From IMG/VR virus record IMGVR_UViG_3300021960_000017: a stretch of DNA of 64,000 nucleotides. One strand, 5' to 3'. Of this stretch, positions 57,957 to 64,000 are shown one piece after another (position 1 is the stretch's first letter; the number at the start of each line of letters is the position of its first letter). Position numbers and translations under genes: made by a program. Under the pieces are notes generated by a model. It worked only from the letters and a program-made list of their open reading frames with translations. It was not told where the DNA came from and ran no database searches. This DNA is from a virus (Duplodnaviria; Caudoviricetes).

Positions 57957-59858
57957 ATGGCAACTATTAAAGCAACTATCACTAGTCTTGGTCTTAATGC
58001 ACTGGGTGGTGCAGTAAATGGTCAGGGTTTAAATAACCTAGGTAAAATTTTAAGTCAGCCTATGTCTAACCTTGGTGGATTTGGCGGTCAGATGGATGCC
58101 CAGGCTAAAATTGCAAATATAATTAAAACAGATTACGATACTCCAGCATTATTAAATGCTGGTGGTTTTAATCCATTAGTTTACCTTAGCAATGCATTAA
58201 CTGGTGTAGCAGATGAAGTAGGCAGCGCAACTAGTGATGGTCGTGGTGCTATTTCCGGATCACTAGGATCAGGTTTTCAAGCTCTAGATGGATCAGGTAT
58301 AGTAGATGCAATTAGTATACACACAGAGTACCTTAAAGGAAGTTATGGTGCTAATAGTATTATGCAGTGTTTTGTTGGTGTAGAAGCATTTTGCTTTATC
58401 AGTAAAGAAATGTACCAAACACTCGAAGGCGGTCTAGCAGCTCGTTTTGGTAGCGCATTTGCTGCGTTAAACAGTAGTTTACCAGCAAGTGAAACATTAT
58501 CAGCAGTAGATAGTACATTTTTAGCAAATAATAGTAACAGTGAAGTAGAGGAAATATTAGGTGGCGAATATGCCTTTACCAATTTTCTTGGTGTTAATAT
58601 AAACAACATCACAGACGCAATAACAAATGGTTTTAGTAATTTTATTACTGGTAATGTAAAAACAACTTTAGCACAACTTGCAGTTGATTTTACCAACCTT
58701 GGTAATGCGTATGATCTTACAGACATAGACAACTTTGGAAATCCCGGACAGATAGTAGACAGATTAATTAGTGTGGGTGCTGGTGATATTACGGGTGTAA
58801 TAGATGCTATGCAGGATATTGGTGGAAATCAATTACTTGCAAATGTTGGTAATTTATCCAGTAGCCAGTTTAACAGTCAATTAACAGATGCATTAAGTTT
58901 AATTACCAACTCTGAGATGATTGCAATAGCGCAACAAGCATTAGGTAGTAATGTTCCTAATTTGACTAGTTTGGCTGACTTAACTGATATAAGGAAAGTA
59001 TTACCAACGAGTTTTGATAATATTAGTCCTAATACTTTTACTCAACTAGTTGTTGAACTTAAAAATTTAAATATTGGAAATTTACAAACACCGCAACAAC
59101 TTGGTACATTACTCGGACGATTCGATTTTCCTGTAAGTTTGCCTACAATAGAAAATTCAACAGTATTAATTGACAATGACGCCGCTGCAAATATTAGAAC
59201 TAAGTTTTTAAATAAAAACTTTAAAGACATGAAAGTAAGTGATGCAATAGGGTCACTTGCGGGTGTTGGTATAAGAAACCCAATTACTAGGTTTACTAAT
59301 GCTATGACAGAAATGGCTAACGCTGGTGCATTTACTGCATTAAATGCTTTATATACTCGTCTTAATGCAGGGTTAAATGGAGATTATAATACAGGCGCTG
59401 TATATGGTGTAGATACTATTGATGATCCGGTAACCAGTATAAGTTATAATGACATGGATGCGTTTGTTAATGCTACACTTTCCCTTATTGGCGCAGAGAT
59501 AACCAGCATTGCGAGCACGGCTGCTTACAGTGATGCTTTTAATAGAGCCCGTGATGCAATTACAGAAATACAGCAAAAAATTTACGATGAAAGCATTACA
59601 TATATTCCTATGATGGATTTGCATTTAAATGATAGAAATAATGATCCTGTAAATGTATATGGTTTTGCGACAAGCATGGAGTCAAGAGTAGAAGACCCTG
59701 ATGCTTTAGATGTACTAAAAGGATTAGCAGAGGCGGCTAAATTACAGAATGATAAGTTTGGTAGCTATTGGGACGCATTTATAAGCGAAACCGTTAATAG
59801 AAACGCTGTTCAAACGCATTCAATAGACTGGATTGCAGAAGATAAAATAGAAATTTAA
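57957..59858 (+). CDS. putative tail/baseplate structural protein
   Basis: 633 aa, G/N/S/T-rich, immediately downstream of the PAAR gene. Confidence 0.55.
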   Translation: MATIKATITSLGLNALGGAVNGQGLNNLGKILSQPMSNLGGFGGQMDAQAKIANIIKTDYDTPALLNAGGFNPLVYLSNALTGVADEVGSATSDGRGAISGSLGSGFQALDGSGIVDAISIHTEYLKGSYGANSIMQCFVGVEAFCFISKEMYQTLEGGLAARFGSAFAALNSSLPASETLSAVDSTFLANNSNSEVEEILGGEYAFTNFLGVNINNITDAITNGFSNFITGNVKTTLAQLAVDFTNLGNAYDLTDIDNFGNPGQIVDRLISVGAGDITGVIDAMQDIGGNQLLANVGNLSSSQFNSQLTDALSLITNSEMIAIAQQALGSNVPNLTSLADLTDIRKVLPTSFDNISPNTFTQLVVELKNLNIGNLQTPQQLGTLLGRFDFPVSLPTIENSTVLIDNDAAANIRTKFLNKNFKDMKVSDAIGSLAGVGIRNPITRFTNAMTEMANAGAFTALNALYTRLNAGLNGDYNTGAVYGVDTIDDPVTSISYNDMDAFVNATLSLIGAEITSIASTAAYSDAFNRARDAITEIQQKIYDESITYIPMMDLHLNDRNNDPVNVYGFATSMESRVEDPDALDVLKGLAEAAKLQNDKFGSYWDAFISETVNRNAVQTHSIDWIAEDKIEI

Positions 59859-59893
59859 CAAATTTTTCCAGTATTACTTACATAAATAAACAC

Positions 59894-60170
59894 TGTAACG
59901 TCGAAGGGCGTTGAAAAACGTAATGGACATGGGGGCAGTACCCATCGTCTCCACCATAAGCACATGGCATTTGTAGTGTGTTTATGTGGGGACGAACCAG
60001 GATCGACATGCGTGGAGTATACAACTGGAGTTATCGGTAGGCGTGACCGTAAATCAGCAAAACAAAGTAAATGCAAACGATAATTTTGCATCTGAGGATT
60101 TTGCCCTAGCGGCATAATACCTATGGGCGTACAGGGCGCCTGGAAACAGAAGGGACTTAGGTCCCACCTG
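59894..60170 (+). ncRNA. ssrA: two-piece (circularly permuted) tmRNA
   Basis: Acceptor piece: T-arm ATGGG-GGCAGTA-CCCAT and CGTCTCC-A-CCA (ends 59956); hairpin intervening sequence 59957-59987; coding piece starts GGGGACG (59988) giving G3.U70; tag GCA AAC GAT...GCA TAA = ANDNFASEDFALAA at 60073-60117; outer ends approximate. Confidence 0.95.
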
Positions 60171-60195
60171 CATTCTTCAGAATAAGGAGTTTAAT

Positions 60196-61137
60196 ATGAA
60201 GAAGCTAATAGTTGCTGCCGCTGCGGTAGCATGTTTAACAACACCTGCGATAGCAGAAGAAAAGGCTGCAAGTCCTATTGATAACATGAACATCAAGACA
60301 TTCGGCCAAGTTCGTGCATATGCACAGGTAGATTCACGTGACAATGTTGATGCAGAAGTAACTTCTGATACAACTAGATTTGGCTTTACAGCTAATGGTC
60401 AGGCAGGTGCAGTTGGTCTATTCGGTGAATTAAGTGCAAATGTTAATGCCAATGACGGCAACGCACTTACAACCCGCTTTGGTTATGTTGGTGCTTCACT
60501 ACCAAAACTTGGTAGCATTAGCCTAGGTAGACAGCATAGCGTACAAGACGGTTTCACTGATCAGGCAGACATCTTCATGAGTGCAGGCAACAACAGTATT
60601 CAGCAAATGGGCTTTTACCAAAACAATAGTGTAAAGTACACAAATGAATTTGGTGGTGTCAAAGTTGCAGCACTTGTTGCAATGGCTGATGGCGACGCTG
60701 CAAACAACGACATTGACCGTTACGAAGTAGGCGTTAGTGCTTATGGTTTTGGCGTTTCAATGGGCAAAGAAGAAGATACTGATACATCATACTATGGCAT
60801 TGGTTACGGCGCAACATACGGTAAGCTCACTGTTGGTGCAACTTACAGCATCAAAGACGTAAACGATGGTGGTGGTTTTGGCGATATTATCCTGTACAAC
60901 AGTGACAAGACTACTGCGGTTACCCGTGGTGCAGAAGTTGCTGTAGGTTTCGCTATGACAGACAAGATCACAATCAACGGTGGTTACAATGTTACAGACG
61001 CTGACGGTGACGAAGGTAATGCTATTGGTGAAGTAGTATACGGCCTTGGTTCAAACGCTGTAGCATTTGCTAGTGTTGAATACGATATTGATGCAAGCGA
61101 GTCAATCACTCGTGCAGGTCTCAATATTAAATTCTAA
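60196..61137 (+). CDS. outer-membrane porin (Gram-negative porin family)
   Basis: Signal peptide ...TPAIA/EEK, TTRFGF, RFGYVG..LGSISLGRQ, alternating beta strands, C-terminal Phe. Confidence 0.9.
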   Translation: MKKLIVAAAAVACLTTPAIAEEKAASPIDNMNIKTFGQVRAYAQVDSRDNVDAEVTSDTTRFGFTANGQAGAVGLFGELSANVNANDGNALTTRFGYVGASLPKLGSISLGRQHSVQDGFTDQADIFMSAGNNSIQQMGFYQNNSVKYTNEFGGVKVAALVAMADGDAANNDIDRYEVGVSAYGFGVSMGKEEDTDTSYYGIGYGATYGKLTVGATYSIKDVNDGGGFGDIILYNSDKTTAVTRGAEVAVGFAMTDKITINGGYNVTDADGDEGNAIGEVVYGLGSNAVAFASVEYDIDASESITRAGLNIKF

Positions 61138-61161
61138 TAATAACATAAGATGTTATATAAT

Positions 61162-61196
61162 AGAGGGGAGAGTAAAATCTCCCCTCTTCTTTTTTT
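61162..61196 (+). terminator. intrinsic terminator
   Basis: AGAGGGGAGA-gtaaaa-TCTCCCCTCT + TCTTTTTTT. Confidence 0.9.
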
Positions 61197-61238
61197 GCCT
61201 GCTATAAATATGATATCTACAGGTAGGTACACACATAC

Positions 61239-61472
61239 ATGAAAAAAATCTTTATCTTGATGATAGGGTTTTCTCTATCAGGCTGTGCCGTGCCAGGTGC
61301 AATTGAACTTGCTAGCACTGTAGGCAGCTGGGCTGCTGATGGGCTAGTGCAGGCTGAAACAGGAAAAAACATACCTGATAAATTAGTAAGTGATCTAGTA
61401 GGTAAAGATTGTACACTAAAAAATATTTTTAAGAAAAAGTTAGATATTTGTAAAGAAATCGAAGAGGAATAG
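61239..61472 (+). CDS. putative lipoprotein
   Basis: MKKIFILMIGFSLSG/C lipobox. Confidence 0.75.
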   Translation: MKKIFILMIGFSLSGCAVPGAIELASTVGSWAADGLVQAETGKNIPDKLVSDLVGKDCTLKNIFKKKLDICKEIEEE

Positions 61473-61475
61473 CTA

Positions 61476-61676
61476 ATGGCTAAGAAGAATAAAAACGACA
61501 AAGTACTAATGATTCCAGAAGGCGAGACTCGCGCCAATGCAAGTTTTCATTTTGTATATCCTAAAACAATAGGTGAAATTAGAAAAGACAAGAAGTTGCG
61601 TATGCGTAAATACCATCCTGGTAAGCGTGAGCATGTTTGGTTTGTAGAAACCAGAATGCCAAACCATAGTAGATAA
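61476..61676 (+). CDS. rpmG: divergent ribosomal protein bL33-like
   Basis: KLRMRKYHPGKREHVWFVETRM aligns with bL33 [22 protein letters not shown]; N-terminal KVLMI..FHFVYPK matches the bL33 strands. Confidence 0.7.
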   Translation: MAKKNKNDKVLMIPEGETRANASFHFVYPKTIGEIRKDKKLRMRKYHPGKREHVWFVETRMPNHSR

Positions 61677-61709
61677 GCCTATAAATAAAACATACCAGGA
61701 GATATCAAA

Positions 61710-61874
61710 ATGGCAAAAGGTGCAAAATCTATTGGTTCTAGCAAAGGCGTAAAACTAACCCTAAACAGAACTGGTACAAAAAAGCGTACAAGTATTGGTC
61801 AGAGCAACAATACAAAACCCAAAAATAAACATGCACGGCAGGACTTCAAAGCATATCGAGGACAAGGCAAATAA
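61710..61874 (+). CDS. 54-aa basic protein ending YRGQGK (not in ORF track)
   Basis: MAKGAKSIGSSKGVKLTLNRTGTKKRTSIGQSNNTKPKNKHARQDFKAYRGQGK; TAAATA and AGGAG upstream. Confidence 0.75.
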   Translation: MAKGAKSIGSSKGVKLTLNRTGTKKRTSIGQSNNTKPKNKHARQDFKAYRGQGK

Positions 61875-61899
61875 ATACTCCTGAAGAGGAGTATCGATT

Positions 61900-62343
61900 A
61901 TGTATGAATATCGAGTAACAGTTTTGAAAGTAGTCGACGGTGACACCGTAGACGTGGATATTGATTTAGGTTTTGGTGTTTGGCTACGCAATGAGCGTGT
62001 TCGTATAATGGGCATAGACACTCCAGAATCTCGCACTAGTGATCCAGTAGAAAAGAAGTTTGGCCTTGCTGCAAAAAACAGATTAAAGCAACTTCTTGGT
62101 AAAGAAGCCATACTTAAAACACAGGTAGACAAAGATGGCGAGGATATGAAGGGCAAGTTTGGCCGTATACTTGGTGACTTTGAATGCTATGACGCAAAGA
62201 ATGACAGACATACCGTAGTAACTGAAATATTAATACAAGAAGGTCACTGTGTTCCTTACTTTGGCGGTAGCAAAGAAGACGTTCAAGAGCAGCATATGCG
62301 TAACAGAGAACGTCTAATTGCTGAAGGTATTGTTACACTATAA
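61900..62343 (+). CDS. thermonuclease (SNase-like)
   Basis: VVDGDTV, RVRIMGIDTPE, KFGRILG, LIQEGH. Confidence 0.9.
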   Translation: MYEYRVTVLKVVDGDTVDVDIDLGFGVWLRNERVRIMGIDTPESRTSDPVEKKFGLAAKNRLKQLLGKEAILKTQVDKDGEDMKGKFGRILGDFECYDAKNDRHTVVTEILIQEGHCVPYFGGSKEDVQEQHMRNRERLIAEGIVTL

Positions 62344-62347
62344 ACGG

Positions 62348-62375
62348 TTGACAAGCGTAAAATAACTGCTATAAT
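62348..62375 (+). promoter_or_regulatory. sigma70-type promoter
   Basis: GG-TTGACA-N16-TATAAT with extended TG. Confidence 0.8.
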
Positions 62376-62390
62376 GATCATATATTAACT

Positions 62391-63140
62391 ATGACGGAGG
62401 TTCCTGTGGGACCAAGAGCAGGACTGTTAATTATAGGATTTATGGCAGGCGTTGTCTCCTACTACTATGGTGGTGATCCTAGAACTGAAATAAAGTTTGT
62501 TGATGTTGAGCGGGTAGTTGAAAAACTAGTGCCTGTTGAGCGTGTAGTTGTCAAAGAAGTAGTAGTTCCTACTGTGGTAGAAAAAGTAGTAGTTAAAGAA
62601 GTTCCTACTACTAAAACTGTTATACAAACAAAAACAGTCTATGTCCCCGACACCAAAGAAAAAAATAGCGTACATGAAGATGACCTTTATTGTATGGCAC
62701 TAAACATATATCGTGAAGCAGCAAACCAAAGCCTTGCTGGCATGGTTGCTGTTGGCAGGGTAGTAATGAATAGAGTCAATGATAGAAGGTTTCCTGGTAC
62801 TGTGTGTGAAGTTATATACGAAGGACCTGTAAAAGAAAGTTGGAAAACTAAACAGAATCCTAATCTTGCAGAAGAAGATCGTGTATATTATCCACGTAAA
62901 AATCTTTGTCAATTTAGTTGGTATTGCGACGGCAAAAGAGACGAAGTGATAAACACTGAAAACAATATAAAGTGGCAAACCGCTACAGATATTGCCTATG
63001 ACATTTTGGCATATGATAGATGGAAAGGATTGGTAGAAGGATCTACACATTATCATGCAAACTATGTAAAGCCTACTTGGCGTAAGAGCATGACACTTGT
63101 AGCACATATTGATGATCATATCTTCTACAGAGCTGACTAA
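62391..63140 (+). CDS. SleB-like cell wall hydrolase with N-terminal TM anchor and VEK-rich stalk
   Basis: CMALNIYREA, VGRVVMNRV, FPGTVCEVI, CQFSWYCDG, THYHA, HIFY. Confidence 0.9.
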   Translation: MTEVPVGPRAGLLIIGFMAGVVSYYYGGDPRTEIKFVDVERVVEKLVPVERVVVKEVVVPTVVEKVVVKEVPTTKTVIQTKTVYVPDTKEKNSVHEDDLYCMALNIYREAANQSLAGMVAVGRVVMNRVNDRRFPGTVCEVIYEGPVKESWKTKQNPNLAEEDRVYYPRKNLCQFSWYCDGKRDEVINTENNIKWQTATDIAYDILAYDRWKGLVEGSTHYHANYVKPTWRKSMTLVAHIDDHIFYRAD

Positions 63141-63898
63141 TGTTTAACACAGATGGTTTAGAAAAAGCACGACAAGATTTTAAACAGAATAGGTTCTGTG
63201 TTATTGACAACATTATACAAGAGCCCTGGATAGGCGAGTTATATAAATGCTTGCCTAATATGAACATGGGTTATTGGATGTGTGCTGGACACAAGCATCA
63301 AAAGATAAGCCAAGAGCAGGCAAAAACACTGGACATGGCTGGTTATAAAAGTTATCATAAAACAGCAGCACAACAAGATTTCGGGTACTGGCATCGTGCG
63401 AAATGGATATTAAAAGAAGAAGACCTAATAGAGAATGATTTTCCAAGAGTAATAGAATTTACTAGAGTTGTTTTAGGAGATTACTCACTGGGGAAACCAG
63501 AGACTACATTTTTGGATATTGCTGAGTATATCAGCGAATTTACCAATATGTTTACTGAACAACCCAGTTACAGTGCATATGATAATGAGAGTTGGCTAAA
63601 TGCACATCATGATCCAAGACGCTGGTTAGCATATATTTTCTATTTTAATCCTGGGTGGCAAGCCCATTGGGGCGGGCAACTATGCATAATGAATGATGAT
63701 GAAACTACAATTAAGCATAGCATTGAACCATTTGGTAACCGTTTGTTAATAATGGATGTAAGTGAAACAACTGGTCCAAGAATTAACAAGCACTTTATTA
63801 GCCCTGTAAGTTATATTGCTCCTTATCCAAGATATAGTTTGGCAGGTTGGTTTTACCCAAAGGACGCAAGTGGCGCAATGCCTGTAATGAGACACTAA
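63140..63898 (+). CDS. 2OG-Fe(II) oxygenase (prolyl-hydroxylase-like)
   Basis: HHD..LAYIFYFN..W...GGQL...HFI...RYSLAGW. Confidence 0.88.
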   Translation: MFNTDGLEKARQDFKQNRFCVIDNIIQEPWIGELYKCLPNMNMGYWMCAGHKHQKISQEQAKTLDMAGYKSYHKTAAQQDFGYWHRAKWILKEEDLIENDFPRVIEFTRVVLGDYSLGKPETTFLDIAEYISEFTNMFTEQPSYSAYDNESWLNAHHDPRRWLAYIFYFNPGWQAHWGGQLCIMNDDETTIKHSIEPFGNRLLIMDVSETTGPRINKHFISPVSYIAPYPRYSLAGWFYPKDASGAMPVMRH

Positions 63899-63905
63899 AT
63901 AACAT

Positions 63906-64000
63906 ATGGAAAACAAACACACACAAGAACAGGAAGGCCCAGTCCAAAGTCATGACCCAGATCAGAGAGTATGGGAATATGATGGAACTGGACAAAAGAT
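63906..64000 (+). CDS. partial ORF running off the window end
   Basis: ATG after TAAATA (63896-63901); open frame MENKHTQEQEG... Confidence 0.5.
   Translation, partial: MENKHTQEQEGPVQSHDPDQRVWEYDGTGQK

What the first reader, a model, noticed from the sequence alone, without database searches (positions are those of the whole stretch)
61476..61676. Phage-encoded divergent ribosomal protein bL33
Seen: the C-terminal KLRMRKYHPGKREHVWFVE matches the bL33 signature; it is Zn-free, with an insertion and a short C-terminal extension. Established: phage ribosomal proteins are rare (mostly bS21 and bL12), and bL33 sits near the E-site. Inference: it replaces host bL33 to tune translation late in infection. 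It lies 1.3 kb from the tmRNA.
Basis: partly seen in the sequence, partly recalled or inferred. Interest (0 to 1): 0.7.

Follow-up and report, generated by a model that had tools for sequence, protein, structure and literature searches.

The report
Phage-borne ribosomal protein bL33 gene
An uncultured giant marine phage carries a real, well-conserved copy of the small ribosomal protein bL33; its odd features are those of the bL33 of the ocean bacteria SAR86 and SAR11, and bL33 genes in aquatic viruses have been reported before.

Summary
The 66-codon ORF at 61476-61676 (+) is real and is a true bL33 homologue. On its own it falls just below the curated cut-offs (PF00471 19.4/25 bits; TIGR01023 20.2/23.95). 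The family evidence is strong. A profile of its relatives hits only L33 chains in the PDB and matches canonical bL33 by hhalign at 96.6%. It finds one site per genome in 244 of 300 Gammaproteobacteria, and every locus I read out there was a canonical 50-66 aa bL33. The AlphaFold model's top 50 neighbours are all bL33.

The gene belongs to a virus-only clade on at least 128 IMG/VR contigs and in no GenBank phage record. It is under purifying selection (median dN/dS 0.13).

The "divergent" traits are lineage traits, not phage inventions. The loop insertion and the MP(P/N)HS(K/R) tail are shared with the sole bL33 of SAR86, and the tail with the bL33 of SAR11-type cells. Lack of cysteines is normal in Proteobacteria.

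Viral bL33 was already described (Mizuno 2019; PhiMa05 2026), so this is a new member of a known kind. Ribosome incorporation and "late tuning" remain inference; two TATAAATA motifs hint at late expression.

Another first-reader note on this same genome (e1-5379042) flagged the same gene. Side lead: SAR86's bL33 looks foreign, possibly exchanged through phages.

The parts
61476..61676 (+). bL33 homologue: 66 aa, Cys-free, with the MPNHSR tail
   Evidence: ORF. PF00471 19.4 bits and TIGR01023 20.2 bits, both below cut-off. Family profile against PDB: 50 of 50 hits are L33, best E = 5e-7. hhalign against canonical bL33: 96.6%. AF2 pLDDT 83.7, and the top 50 Foldseek hits are all bL33. dN/dS 0.13.
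61464..61468 (+). Shine-Dalgarno-like GAGGA, 7 nt before the ATG and inside the end of the upstream gene
   Evidence: Read from the sequence.
61239..61472 (+). 77-aa lipoprotein-like gene (signal peptide plus Cys). Its stop lies 3 nt before the bL33 start. It sits upstream of bL33 in 9 related viral loci.
61203..61210 (+). TATAAATA, the T4 late-promoter consensus, 29 nt upstream of the lipoprotein-bL33 unit
   Evidence: All 4 plus-strand copies in the window lie 9-30 nt upstream of ORF starts. The total count is not above chance.
61680..61687 (+). Second TATAAATA, 23 nt upstream of the 54-aa gene
61710..61874 (+). 54-aa very basic protein ending in YRGQGK. It lies directly downstream of bL33 in 13 related viral loci. 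Function unknown.
   Evidence: phmmer on the fetched loci; viral hypothetical clusters; no family match.
61874..61895 (.). Palindromic hairpin right after the 54-aa gene; possible end of the transcription unit
   Evidence: scored on the minus strand; no T-run on the plus strand.
61162..61187 (+). Strong intrinsic terminator after the porin gene. It separates the tmRNA-porin unit from the lipoprotein-bL33 unit.
59852..60160 (+). Permuted (two-piece) alpha-type tmRNA, tag ANDNFASEDFALAA. It is a neighbour of the bL33 gene, not in the same transcription unit.
   Evidence: RF01849 112 bits, RF04321 120.8 bits; tag frame; 44 nt are 93% identical to the ssrA of phage Melnitz.

Best explanation
The ORF encodes a genuine, functional homologue of large-subunit ribosomal protein bL33. 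It is carried by an uncultured giant marine or estuarine phage.

It belongs to a virus-only clade inside an unusual group of bL33 proteins that end in (K/R)(M/L)PPHSK. That group also contains the only bL33 of SAR86 bacteria and the bL33 of SAR11-type bacteria. An ancestor of these phages therefore took the gene from such a host lineage (or exchanged it with one) and has kept it under purifying selection.

Most likely (inferred, not shown) the protein is made during infection, probably from a T4-type late promoter together with a small lipoprotein. It would then enter host 50S subunits at the normal bL33 site beside the E-site tRNA. bL33 is one of the loosely bound, exchangeable ribosomal proteins. 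The phage copy would replace or top up the host copy and help keep the few ribosomes of a slow-growing, streamlined host working. This would sit alongside the phage's own tmRNA and, in its closest relative, bS21 and tRNAs.
For: Homology:
- PF00471 and TIGR01023 are the top hits, though below cut-off.
- 23 of 24 close relatives hit PF00471.
- The family profile against PDB gives 50 of 50 hits as L33, best E = 5e-7.
- hhalign against canonical alpha/gamma bL33 gives 96.6%, E = 6e-10.
- The wider profile (A2, which includes SAR86-like, SAR11-like and viral rows) finds one site per genome in 244 of 300 Gammaproteobacteria; all 28 such loci that I read out outside SAR86 are canonical-looking bL33 of 50-66 aa.
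- AF2 model pLDDT is 83.7. Its top 50 PDB neighbours all come from ribosome large-subunit entries; the chains I could match to the sequence searches are named L33. Target TM reaches 0.79.

Functional cellular orthologues:
- In two complete SAR86 genomes the only PF00471 match is this type.
- A SAR11-type 1.16-Mb genome has the tailed form in a normal cellular context.

Phage context:
- The window holds RNR, DnaB, a DNA polymerase, an SNase-like nuclease and an endolysin.
- 128 IMG/VR contigs of up to 316 kb carry the clade.

Selection:
- Median dN/dS is 0.13 over 260 pairs. Window against its nearest relative: dN 0.088, dS 0.68.

Translation toolkit:
- The tmRNA lies 1.3 kb upstream.
- The closest relative contig carries bL33 next to 8 tRNA genes, plus bS21 and an alpha-type tmRNA.

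Precedent:
- Viral bS21 and bL12 enter E. coli 70S ribosomes. bL33 is listed among the exchangeable proteins enriched in viruses (PMC6375957).
Against: - There is no evidence of expression or ribosome incorporation.
- The host is unknown. The phage protein is only 41-51% identical to SAR86 bL33, and by my reading of the alignments about 35-45% identical to the SAR11 type, so fit to a given host ribosome is not assured.
- The same clade sits in phages of different architecture (window-like, and T4-like with PolB and plastocyanin). These phages may have different hosts.
- The protein itself scores below both curated HMM cut-offs.
- TATAAATA is not enriched overall in the window (5 found, 8.2 expected).
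- The tmRNA is in a separate transcription unit behind a terminator, so the proximity may carry no functional meaning.
Confidence: 0.6

Rival explanations
1. The protein is a bL33 descendant that has left the ribosome. It would act as a small RNA-binding factor, for example on phage mRNAs, the phage tmRNA or tRNAs. Alternatively it could be a decoy that blocks the bL33 site or 50S assembly and so shuts down or re-programmes host translation.
For: - The viral clade sits on a long branch, separate from every cellular clade.
- It falls below the Pfam and TIGR cut-offs.
- It is paired in 13 loci with a conserved, very basic 54-aa protein of unknown function.
- It occurs in phages of different architecture.
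Against: - The core bL33 motif (KL-x-x-RKY-x-P-x-x-R-x-H-V-x-F-x-E) and the fold are kept.
- The tail and the insertion are the same as in SAR86's only, and therefore ribosomal, bL33.
- The strong purifying selection resembles that on other viral ribosomal proteins shown to enter ribosomes (PMC6375957).
Confidence: 0.2
2. The gene is a recently captured host gene carried as a neutral passenger, with no role for the phage.
For: Phages do sample host DNA at random (Mizuno 2019 discussion).
Against: - At least 128 viral contigs carry it, and they form a deep virus-only clade.
- Median dN/dS is 0.13, with synonymous sites saturated in most pairs.
- No cellular genome held a near-identical copy. 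The best cellular match is 51%. The one 66% match, in a 'Legionellales MAG', is most likely a mis-binned viral contig: same 27770-bp length, window-clade protein identical to IMG/VR locus L077.
Confidence: 0.04
3. The stretch is cellular DNA (a contaminant, a chimeric assembly, or a prophage-borne host gene). On that reading the ORF is simply a bacterium's own rpmG.
For: The flanking genes look host-like (porin, lipoprotein, tmRNA).
Against: - The same gene order (bL33, SNase, Hydrolase_2 endolysin, 2OG oxygenase) recurs on independent viral contigs.
- The window is full of phage replication genes.
- The stretch is held by metagenomes from several studies.
- Complete SAR86 and SAR11-type genomes carry a different, single bL33.
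Confidence: 0.03

Closest known systems
Virus-encoded bL33 on uncultivated aquatic viral contigs (Mizuno et al. 2019, Nat Commun 10:752, PMC6375957)
   Same: A PF00471-type gene on aquatic phage contigs, under purifying selection (their dN/dS is 0.09; 0.13 here). Their proposed role is replacement of an exchangeable host ribosomal protein. They report at least two independent virus-host transfers.
   Different: They found 12 contigs using Pfam thresholds. The window's protein and most of its clade score below that threshold, so the clade (at least 128 IMG/VR contigs) is probably much under-counted. The link to SAR86- and SAR11-type bL33 is not described in the parts of the paper that I read.
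Cellular bL33 of the SAR86 cluster (e.g. CP097968.1, OX044367.1)
   Same: Length 64-67 aa, no Cys, the same IPEGE(T/S)R loop insertion and the same LPPHSK tail. Identity to the window protein is 41-51%. It is the sister or neighbouring clade in every tree.
   Different: It is chromosomal, it is the only bL33 of the cell, and it forms its own clade (98/92 to 100/95 support). The window protein belongs to a separate virus-only clade.
bL33 of SAR11-type (Pelagibacteraceae) cells, 63 aa
   Same: No Cys and the KKLPPHSK tail. It belongs to the same tailed superclade (100/100 support).
   Different: It lacks the 4-residue loop insertion and keeps the canonical FYYxxKKP motif. By my reading of the alignments it is about 35-45% identical to the window protein.
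bL33 of the jumbo cyanophage PhiMa05 (ISME J 2026, PMC13157829)
   Same: A bL33 gene in a jumbo phage that also carries other translation genes.
   Different: In the paper's trees the PhiMa05 copy groups with Vampirovibrio bL33, and the authors suggest acquisition from such a host. tblastn of the window protein against GenBank phage records found no relative.
bS21 of pelagiphage HTVC008M and of other phages
   Same: A small, exchangeable ribosomal protein encoded by phages of streamlined marine bacteria. The window's closest relative contig carries bS21 as well.
   Different: It belongs to a different protein and a different subunit. For bS21, incorporation into 70S ribosomes has been shown experimentally; for viral bL33 I found no such test in the papers I read.
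Zinc-independent (C-) bL33 paralogues of Zur regulons (B. subtilis, mycobacterial alternative ribosomal proteins)
   Same: A Cys-free bL33.
   Different: Those are back-up paralogues beside a Cys-containing primary copy. Here Cys-free is simply the normal state of the proteobacterial lineage, and nothing points to zinc control.

Membership tests
bL33 (RpmG; Pfam PF00471, TIGR01023) | Scores at or above the curated HMM cut-off | tested here: not met
   PF00471 gives 19.4 bits against a cut-off of 25. TIGR01023 gives 20.2 against 23.95. This is an operational threshold, not a biological feature. Some clade members and the SAR86 orthologue do pass it.
bL33 (RpmG; Pfam PF00471, TIGR01023) | Homology to bL33 by profile methods, with no competing family | tested here: met
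   Profile against PDB: 50 of 50 hits are L33, E down to 5e-7. hhalign: 96.6%, E = 6e-10. The wider profile gives one hit per genome in 244 of 300 Gammaproteobacteria, and all 28 non-SAR86 loci read out are canonical-looking bL33.
bL33 (RpmG; Pfam PF00471, TIGR01023) | Small four-stranded beta (zinc-ribbon-like) fold of bL33 | tested here: met
   AF2 pLDDT is 83.7, with strands at 9-14, 26-29, 42-47 and 52-59. The Foldseek top 50 are all from ribosome large-subunit entries, matching L33 chains. Target TM is 0.6-0.79 and rmsd 2.2-3.1 A. E-values are weak (6e-3 or higher), as expected for a 66-aa query.
bL33 (RpmG; Pfam PF00471, TIGR01023) | Conserved core K-L-x-x-(R/K)-K-(Y/F)-x-P-x-x-(R/K)-x-H-V-x-(F/Y)-x-E | tested here: met
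   Residues 40-58 (KLRMRKYHPGKREHVWFVE) line up with this core in canonical bL33. K40, L41, R42, K45, Y46, H53, V54 and F56 are invariant in the clade, and P48 and E58 are nearly invariant.
bL33 (RpmG; Pfam PF00471, TIGR01023) | Is a stoichiometric component of the 50S subunit at the E-site side | not testable with these tools
   Needs ribosome purification with mass spectrometry or cryo-EM. The indirect support is that the nearest cellular relatives are the sole bL33 of SAR86 genomes.
Virus-encoded ribosomal proteins (auxiliary translation genes of phages) | Lies on a bona fide viral genome | tested here: met
   Phage replication and lysis genes surround it in the window. Synteny recurs on independent viral contigs. 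128 IMG/VR contigs carry the clade.
Virus-encoded ribosomal proteins (auxiliary translation genes of phages) | Kept by selection in the virus | tested here: met
   Median pairwise dN/dS is 0.13 over 260 unsaturated pairs.
Zinc-starvation back-up (C-) ribosomal paralogue | Coexists with a Cys-containing primary copy and is under Zur-type control | tested here: not met
   All cellular relatives read here (SAR86, the SAR11 type, canonical alpha and gamma) are Cys-free single copies. No Zur-box analysis was done.

The most novel reading that the evidence does not exclude
Marine phages may act as a shuttle for a core ribosomal protein gene between the ocean's most abundant bacteria. On this reading, the tailed bL33 arose in a SAR11-like alphaproteobacterial lineage, was taken up and diversified in giant phages, and a phage-type copy then replaced the native rpmG of the gammaproteobacterial SAR86 lineage.

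The points in favour are these. SAR86's only bL33 falls inside the tailed clade among viral sequences. It is not next to rpmB. A tree that forces it together with other Gammaproteobacteria is rejected (p-AU 0.02).

The window's gene would then be a living member of the donor pool.
Probability: 0.3. Interest if true: 0.7.

Novelty: new member of a known kind. Interest (0 to 1): 0.4.

Why it matters
The case shows that threshold-based surveys under-count virus-encoded bL33. A whole virus-only clade on large marine phages scores just below the Pfam cut-off.

It also gives a concrete candidate for testing whether phages refit the large ribosomal subunit of slow-growing ocean bacteria. The candidate comes with natural partners: a tmRNA, tRNAs, bS21 in a sister genome, and a conserved 54-aa basic neighbour.

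The shared tail and insertion among SAR11-type cells, SAR86 and phages suggest that even ribosomal protein genes move between dominant marine lineages, perhaps through phages. That would matter for phylogenomics that relies on ribosomal protein markers.

Tried and rejected
- ARAGORN found no tRNA or tmRNA in the window. Rfam did find the permuted tmRNA, so I set the ARAGORN blank aside.
- PHROGs has no family for the protein.
- tblastn against 50,697 GenBank phage records found no relative of the window type (one E = 0.1 hit), the 71-aa viral type or the SAR86-like viral type.
- DNA search of 59800-64000 against phages matched only 44 nt of the Melnitz ssrA.
- No whole genome is held for the window.
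- Host inference failed. The phage porin has no match in three SAR86 genomes, one SAR11-type genome and one other alphaproteobacterial genome. The tmRNA alignment to a SAR11-type tmRNA is poor and the tags differ. An alpha-type tmRNA is known to circulate in phages of both SAR11 and OM43 (PMC9004378), so it does not name the host.
- The contigs for three distant metagenomic relatives were too short to classify.
- The look-up of sequencing runs: no RNA holder listed.
- TATAAATA is not enriched in the window overall. Only its positions are suggestive.
- Complex prediction was not used, because bL33 binds mainly rRNA.
- The zinc-starvation reading was considered and dropped (see the membership test).
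- A literature search for SAR86 together with L33/rpmG found nothing relevant.

Full report
**1. The observation**

The window holds a 66-codon ORF at 61476-61676 (+). A GAGGA box lies 7 nt upstream. The start codon lies 3 nt after the stop of a 77-aa lipoprotein-like gene.

The protein has no cysteine. Rfam finds a permuted alpha-type tmRNA at 59852-60160 (RF01849 112 bits, RF04321 120.8 bits), which ends 1316 nt upstream of the gene. ARAGORN missed it. All parts of the observation are therefore confirmed.

**2. Is it bL33?**

Alone, the protein falls just short of the curated thresholds. PF00471 gives 19.4 bits against a cut-off of 25, over residues 36-60. TIGR01023 gives 20.2 against 23.95, over residues 1-60. 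phmmer against PDB chains lists almost only bL33 and mitochondrial bL33m, with a best E of 6e-4.

The family evidence settles the question:
- 24 clusters of close relatives (59-100% identity) exist in public metagenomes.
- 23 of these 24 hit PF00471.
- Their profile hits 50 PDB sequences, all L33, with E down to 5e-7.
- The same profile aligns to a profile of canonical alpha- and gammaproteobacterial bL33 with hhalign probability 96.6% and E = 6e-10.
- A wider profile, which also contains SAR86-like, SAR11-like and other viral rows, was run over 300 evenly sampled Gammaproteobacteria. It hits one place per genome in 244 of them. All 28 loci that I read out outside SAR86 encode a canonical-looking bL33 of 50-66 aa. 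One of the 300 genomes, G041, is flagged unpublished. It contributes only to this tally.
- An AlphaFold2 model built on the family alignment has pLDDT 83.7 and four strands. Its 50 best Foldseek neighbours all come from bacterial or mitochondrial ribosome large-subunit entries, and the chains I could cross-check against searches are named L33. Target-normalised TM reaches 0.79 and rmsd is 2.2-3.1 A. E-values are weak, as expected for 66 residues.

**3. Is it on a phage, and is it kept?**

The window encodes ribonucleotide reductase, a DnaB helicase, a DNA polymerase, helicases, a tailspike-like protein, an SNase-like nuclease and a Hydrolase_2 endolysin. Earlier notes of this scan describe the same genome as an uncultured giant T4-like marine phage.

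The gene order bL33, SNase, Hydrolase_2, 2OG-oxygenase recurs on independent metagenomic contigs. The same bL33 clade also sits beside a family-B DNA polymerase and a plastocyanin-like gene on a 179-kb T4-like contig.

IMG/VR holds 128 contigs with the clade, up to 316 kb long. GenBank phage records hold none.

Pairwise Nei-Gojobori dN/dS over 260 unsaturated pairs has a median of 0.13. Window against its nearest relative gives dN 0.088 and dS 0.68. The gene is therefore a long-standing, selected phage gene. It is not a passenger or an assembly artefact.

**4. What the "divergence" really is**

Compared with canonical proteobacterial bL33 of 50-57 aa, the window protein has three differences:
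- about 4 extra residues in the first hairpin loop (IPEGETRAN);
- 2-3 extra residues in the second loop;
- a 5-6 residue tail (MPNHSR; MPPHSK in most relatives).

A scan of one genome per prokaryotic species found at least 478 cellular loci with the same features. Nearly all are SAR86 cluster genomes, 41-51% identical over the full length.

In two complete SAR86 genomes this is the only PF00471 match. It stands alone between gcvT/RidA-like genes and membrane protein genes.

A second search showed that a 63-aa form with the same KKLPPHSK tail but without the loop insertion is the bL33 of SAR11-type cells. One such protein is named Pelagibacteraceae L33. Another lies among rpmF, plsX, rplM and rpsI on a 1.16-Mb chromosome.

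The insertion, the tail and the lack of cysteines are therefore lineage characters of a "tailed" bL33 group. They are not phage inventions. Cys-free bL33 is also the rule in the alpha- and gammaproteobacterial genomes I read.

**5. Phylogeny**

All trees rest on only about 66 columns.

Rooted on canonical alpha and gamma bL33, the tailed proteins form one clade (99/96 to 100/100 support). Within it, a long-stemmed "insertion" clade (100/100 in the reduced tree) holds three groups:
- the virus-only clade of the window (96/86);
- the SAR86 cellular clade (98/92);
- further viral sequences that resemble SAR86 bL33.

One of those viral sequences lies 3 kb from a T4-type terminase and near a gp32-like gene, so it is truly viral.

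Other viral types resemble SAR11 bL33 more closely. A 71-aa form sits on phage-like contigs with ClpP, a DnaE-like polymerase and DnaB. A further form resembles another small alphaproteobacterial genome.

This fits, and extends, the statement of Mizuno et al. 2019 that bL33 reached viruses at least twice.

**6. Mechanism**

What is shown: the ORF is a selected bL33 homologue on a phage.

What is inferred: it is translated during infection and enters host 50S subunits at the bL33 site near the E-site tRNA, replacing or supplementing the host protein. bL33 belongs to the loosely bound, exchangeable ribosomal proteins that are enriched in viruses. For viral bS21 and bL12, incorporation into E. 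coli ribosomes has been shown (PMC6375957).

On timing, a T4 late-promoter consensus (TATAAATA) lies 29 nt upstream of the lipoprotein-bL33 unit, and another lies 23 nt upstream of the next gene. All four plus-strand copies in the window lie 9-30 nt upstream of ORF starts, but the motif is not enriched overall. This is a hint only.

On neighbours, a strong terminator at 61162-61187 separates the tmRNA-porin unit from the bL33 unit. The tmRNA is therefore a neighbour and not an operon partner.

The association with translation genes does recur. The closest relative contig (203 kb, 88% identical bL33) has eight tRNA genes 0.6 kb downstream of bL33, a bS21 gene (62.9 bits) and an alpha-type tmRNA. 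A 316-kb relative has bL33 plus the tmRNA. I could check this only in the relative.

The host is unknown. SAR86 genomes have a one-piece tmRNA and no alpha-type tmRNA. A SAR11-type genome has an alpha-type tmRNA but with a different tag. Alpha-type tmRNAs also circulate in phages of both SAR11 and OM43 (PMC9004378).

**7. Comparison with what is known, and novelty**

Virus-encoded bL33 has been published. Mizuno et al. report 12 aquatic contigs with dN/dS 0.09. The jumbo cyanophage PhiMa05 also carries one. The finding is therefore a new member of a known kind.

Three points appear to be new relative to the papers I read:
- the size of this sub-threshold, virus-only clade;
- its shared derived characters with SAR86 and SAR11-type bL33;
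- a conserved 54-aa basic partner gene.

**8. Side lead**

SAR86's only bL33 is not gammaproteobacterial in type. In SAR86, rpmB is followed directly by a Maf-like gene, and rpmG lies 436-684 kb away. A tree that forces SAR86 together with canonical Gammaproteobacteria is 42 log-likelihood units worse, with p-AU 0.02. That grouping was named after I had seen the tree. In the trees the SAR86 clade sits among viral sequences, but with weak support.

Phage-mediated replacement of a core ribosomal protein in SAR86 is therefore possible but not shown. My cellular sample was limited to the 80 best loci, and the alignment is very short. One of the 61 Alphaproteobacteria, G343, is flagged unpublished. 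It contributes only to the tally of that call.

**9. Verdict**

The identification as phage bL33 is supported. "Divergent" is explained by ancestry. The functional claims remain inference. Interest is moderate.

Noticed in passing
window 61710-61874 (+): A 54-aa, very basic protein ending in (F/H)K-x-YRGQG. It lies directly downstream of bL33 in 13 other viral loci and has its own TATAAATA motif. It has no Pfam, NCBIfam or PHROG match. In the ESM Atlas it falls among viral hypothetical clusters. It could be a partner of the phage bL33 or another ribosome-associated peptide.
   Followed up: partly
L114 / L171 (SAR86 CP097968.1), L172 (OX044367.1), L338: The only bL33 of SAR86 genomes belongs to the tailed SAR11/phage group, not to gammaproteobacterial bL33. 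rpmB is followed by a Maf-like gene instead of rpmG. Forcing SAR86 together with canonical gamma bL33 is rejected (p-AU 0.02). This suggests replacement by a foreign copy, possibly via phages.
   Followed up: partly
L092 (PBLX01000063.1, 'Legionellales MAG', 27770 bp) and L077 (IMG/VR UViG 2786546787_000014, 27770 bp): The two contigs have the same length and encode an identical bL33. The MAG contig is most likely a mis-binned phage contig.
   Followed up: partly
L008 8760-11452 (IMG/VR UViG 3300033273_000374): In the closest relative, bL33 is followed by a lysozyme-like gene and an array of 8 tRNA genes (Thr, Leu, Ser, Pro, Asp, Ala, Asn, Glu). The same 203-kb contig also carries bS21 and an alpha-type tmRNA.
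   Followed up: partly
window 61239-61472 (+): A 77-aa lipoprotein-like gene is translationally coupled to bL33 (its stop lies 3 nt before the bL33 ATG). A 94-aa homologue lies upstream of bL33 in 9 related loci. This is an odd partner for a ribosomal protein gene.
   Followed up: partly
window 17226, 29187, 61203, 61680 (+): All four plus-strand TATAAATA motifs lie 9-30 nt upstream of ORF starts, although the motif is rarer in the window than chance predicts. This is consistent with T4-type late promoters.
   Followed up: partly
L089-L091, L232, L234 and L328 (G333): A further viral bL33 type (68-69 aa) lies on phage-like contigs beside porin, RpiB, UvdE and ferredoxin genes. It groups with the bL33 of a 1.4-Mb alphaproteobacterial genome, which points to another separate virus-host exchange.
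   Followed up: partly
window 59986-60117 (+): The tag reading frame of the phage tmRNA ends in ANDNFASEDFALAA. The SAR11-type genome G303 has ANESYAIAA, so the phage tmRNA is not a close copy of that host type.
   Followed up: partly
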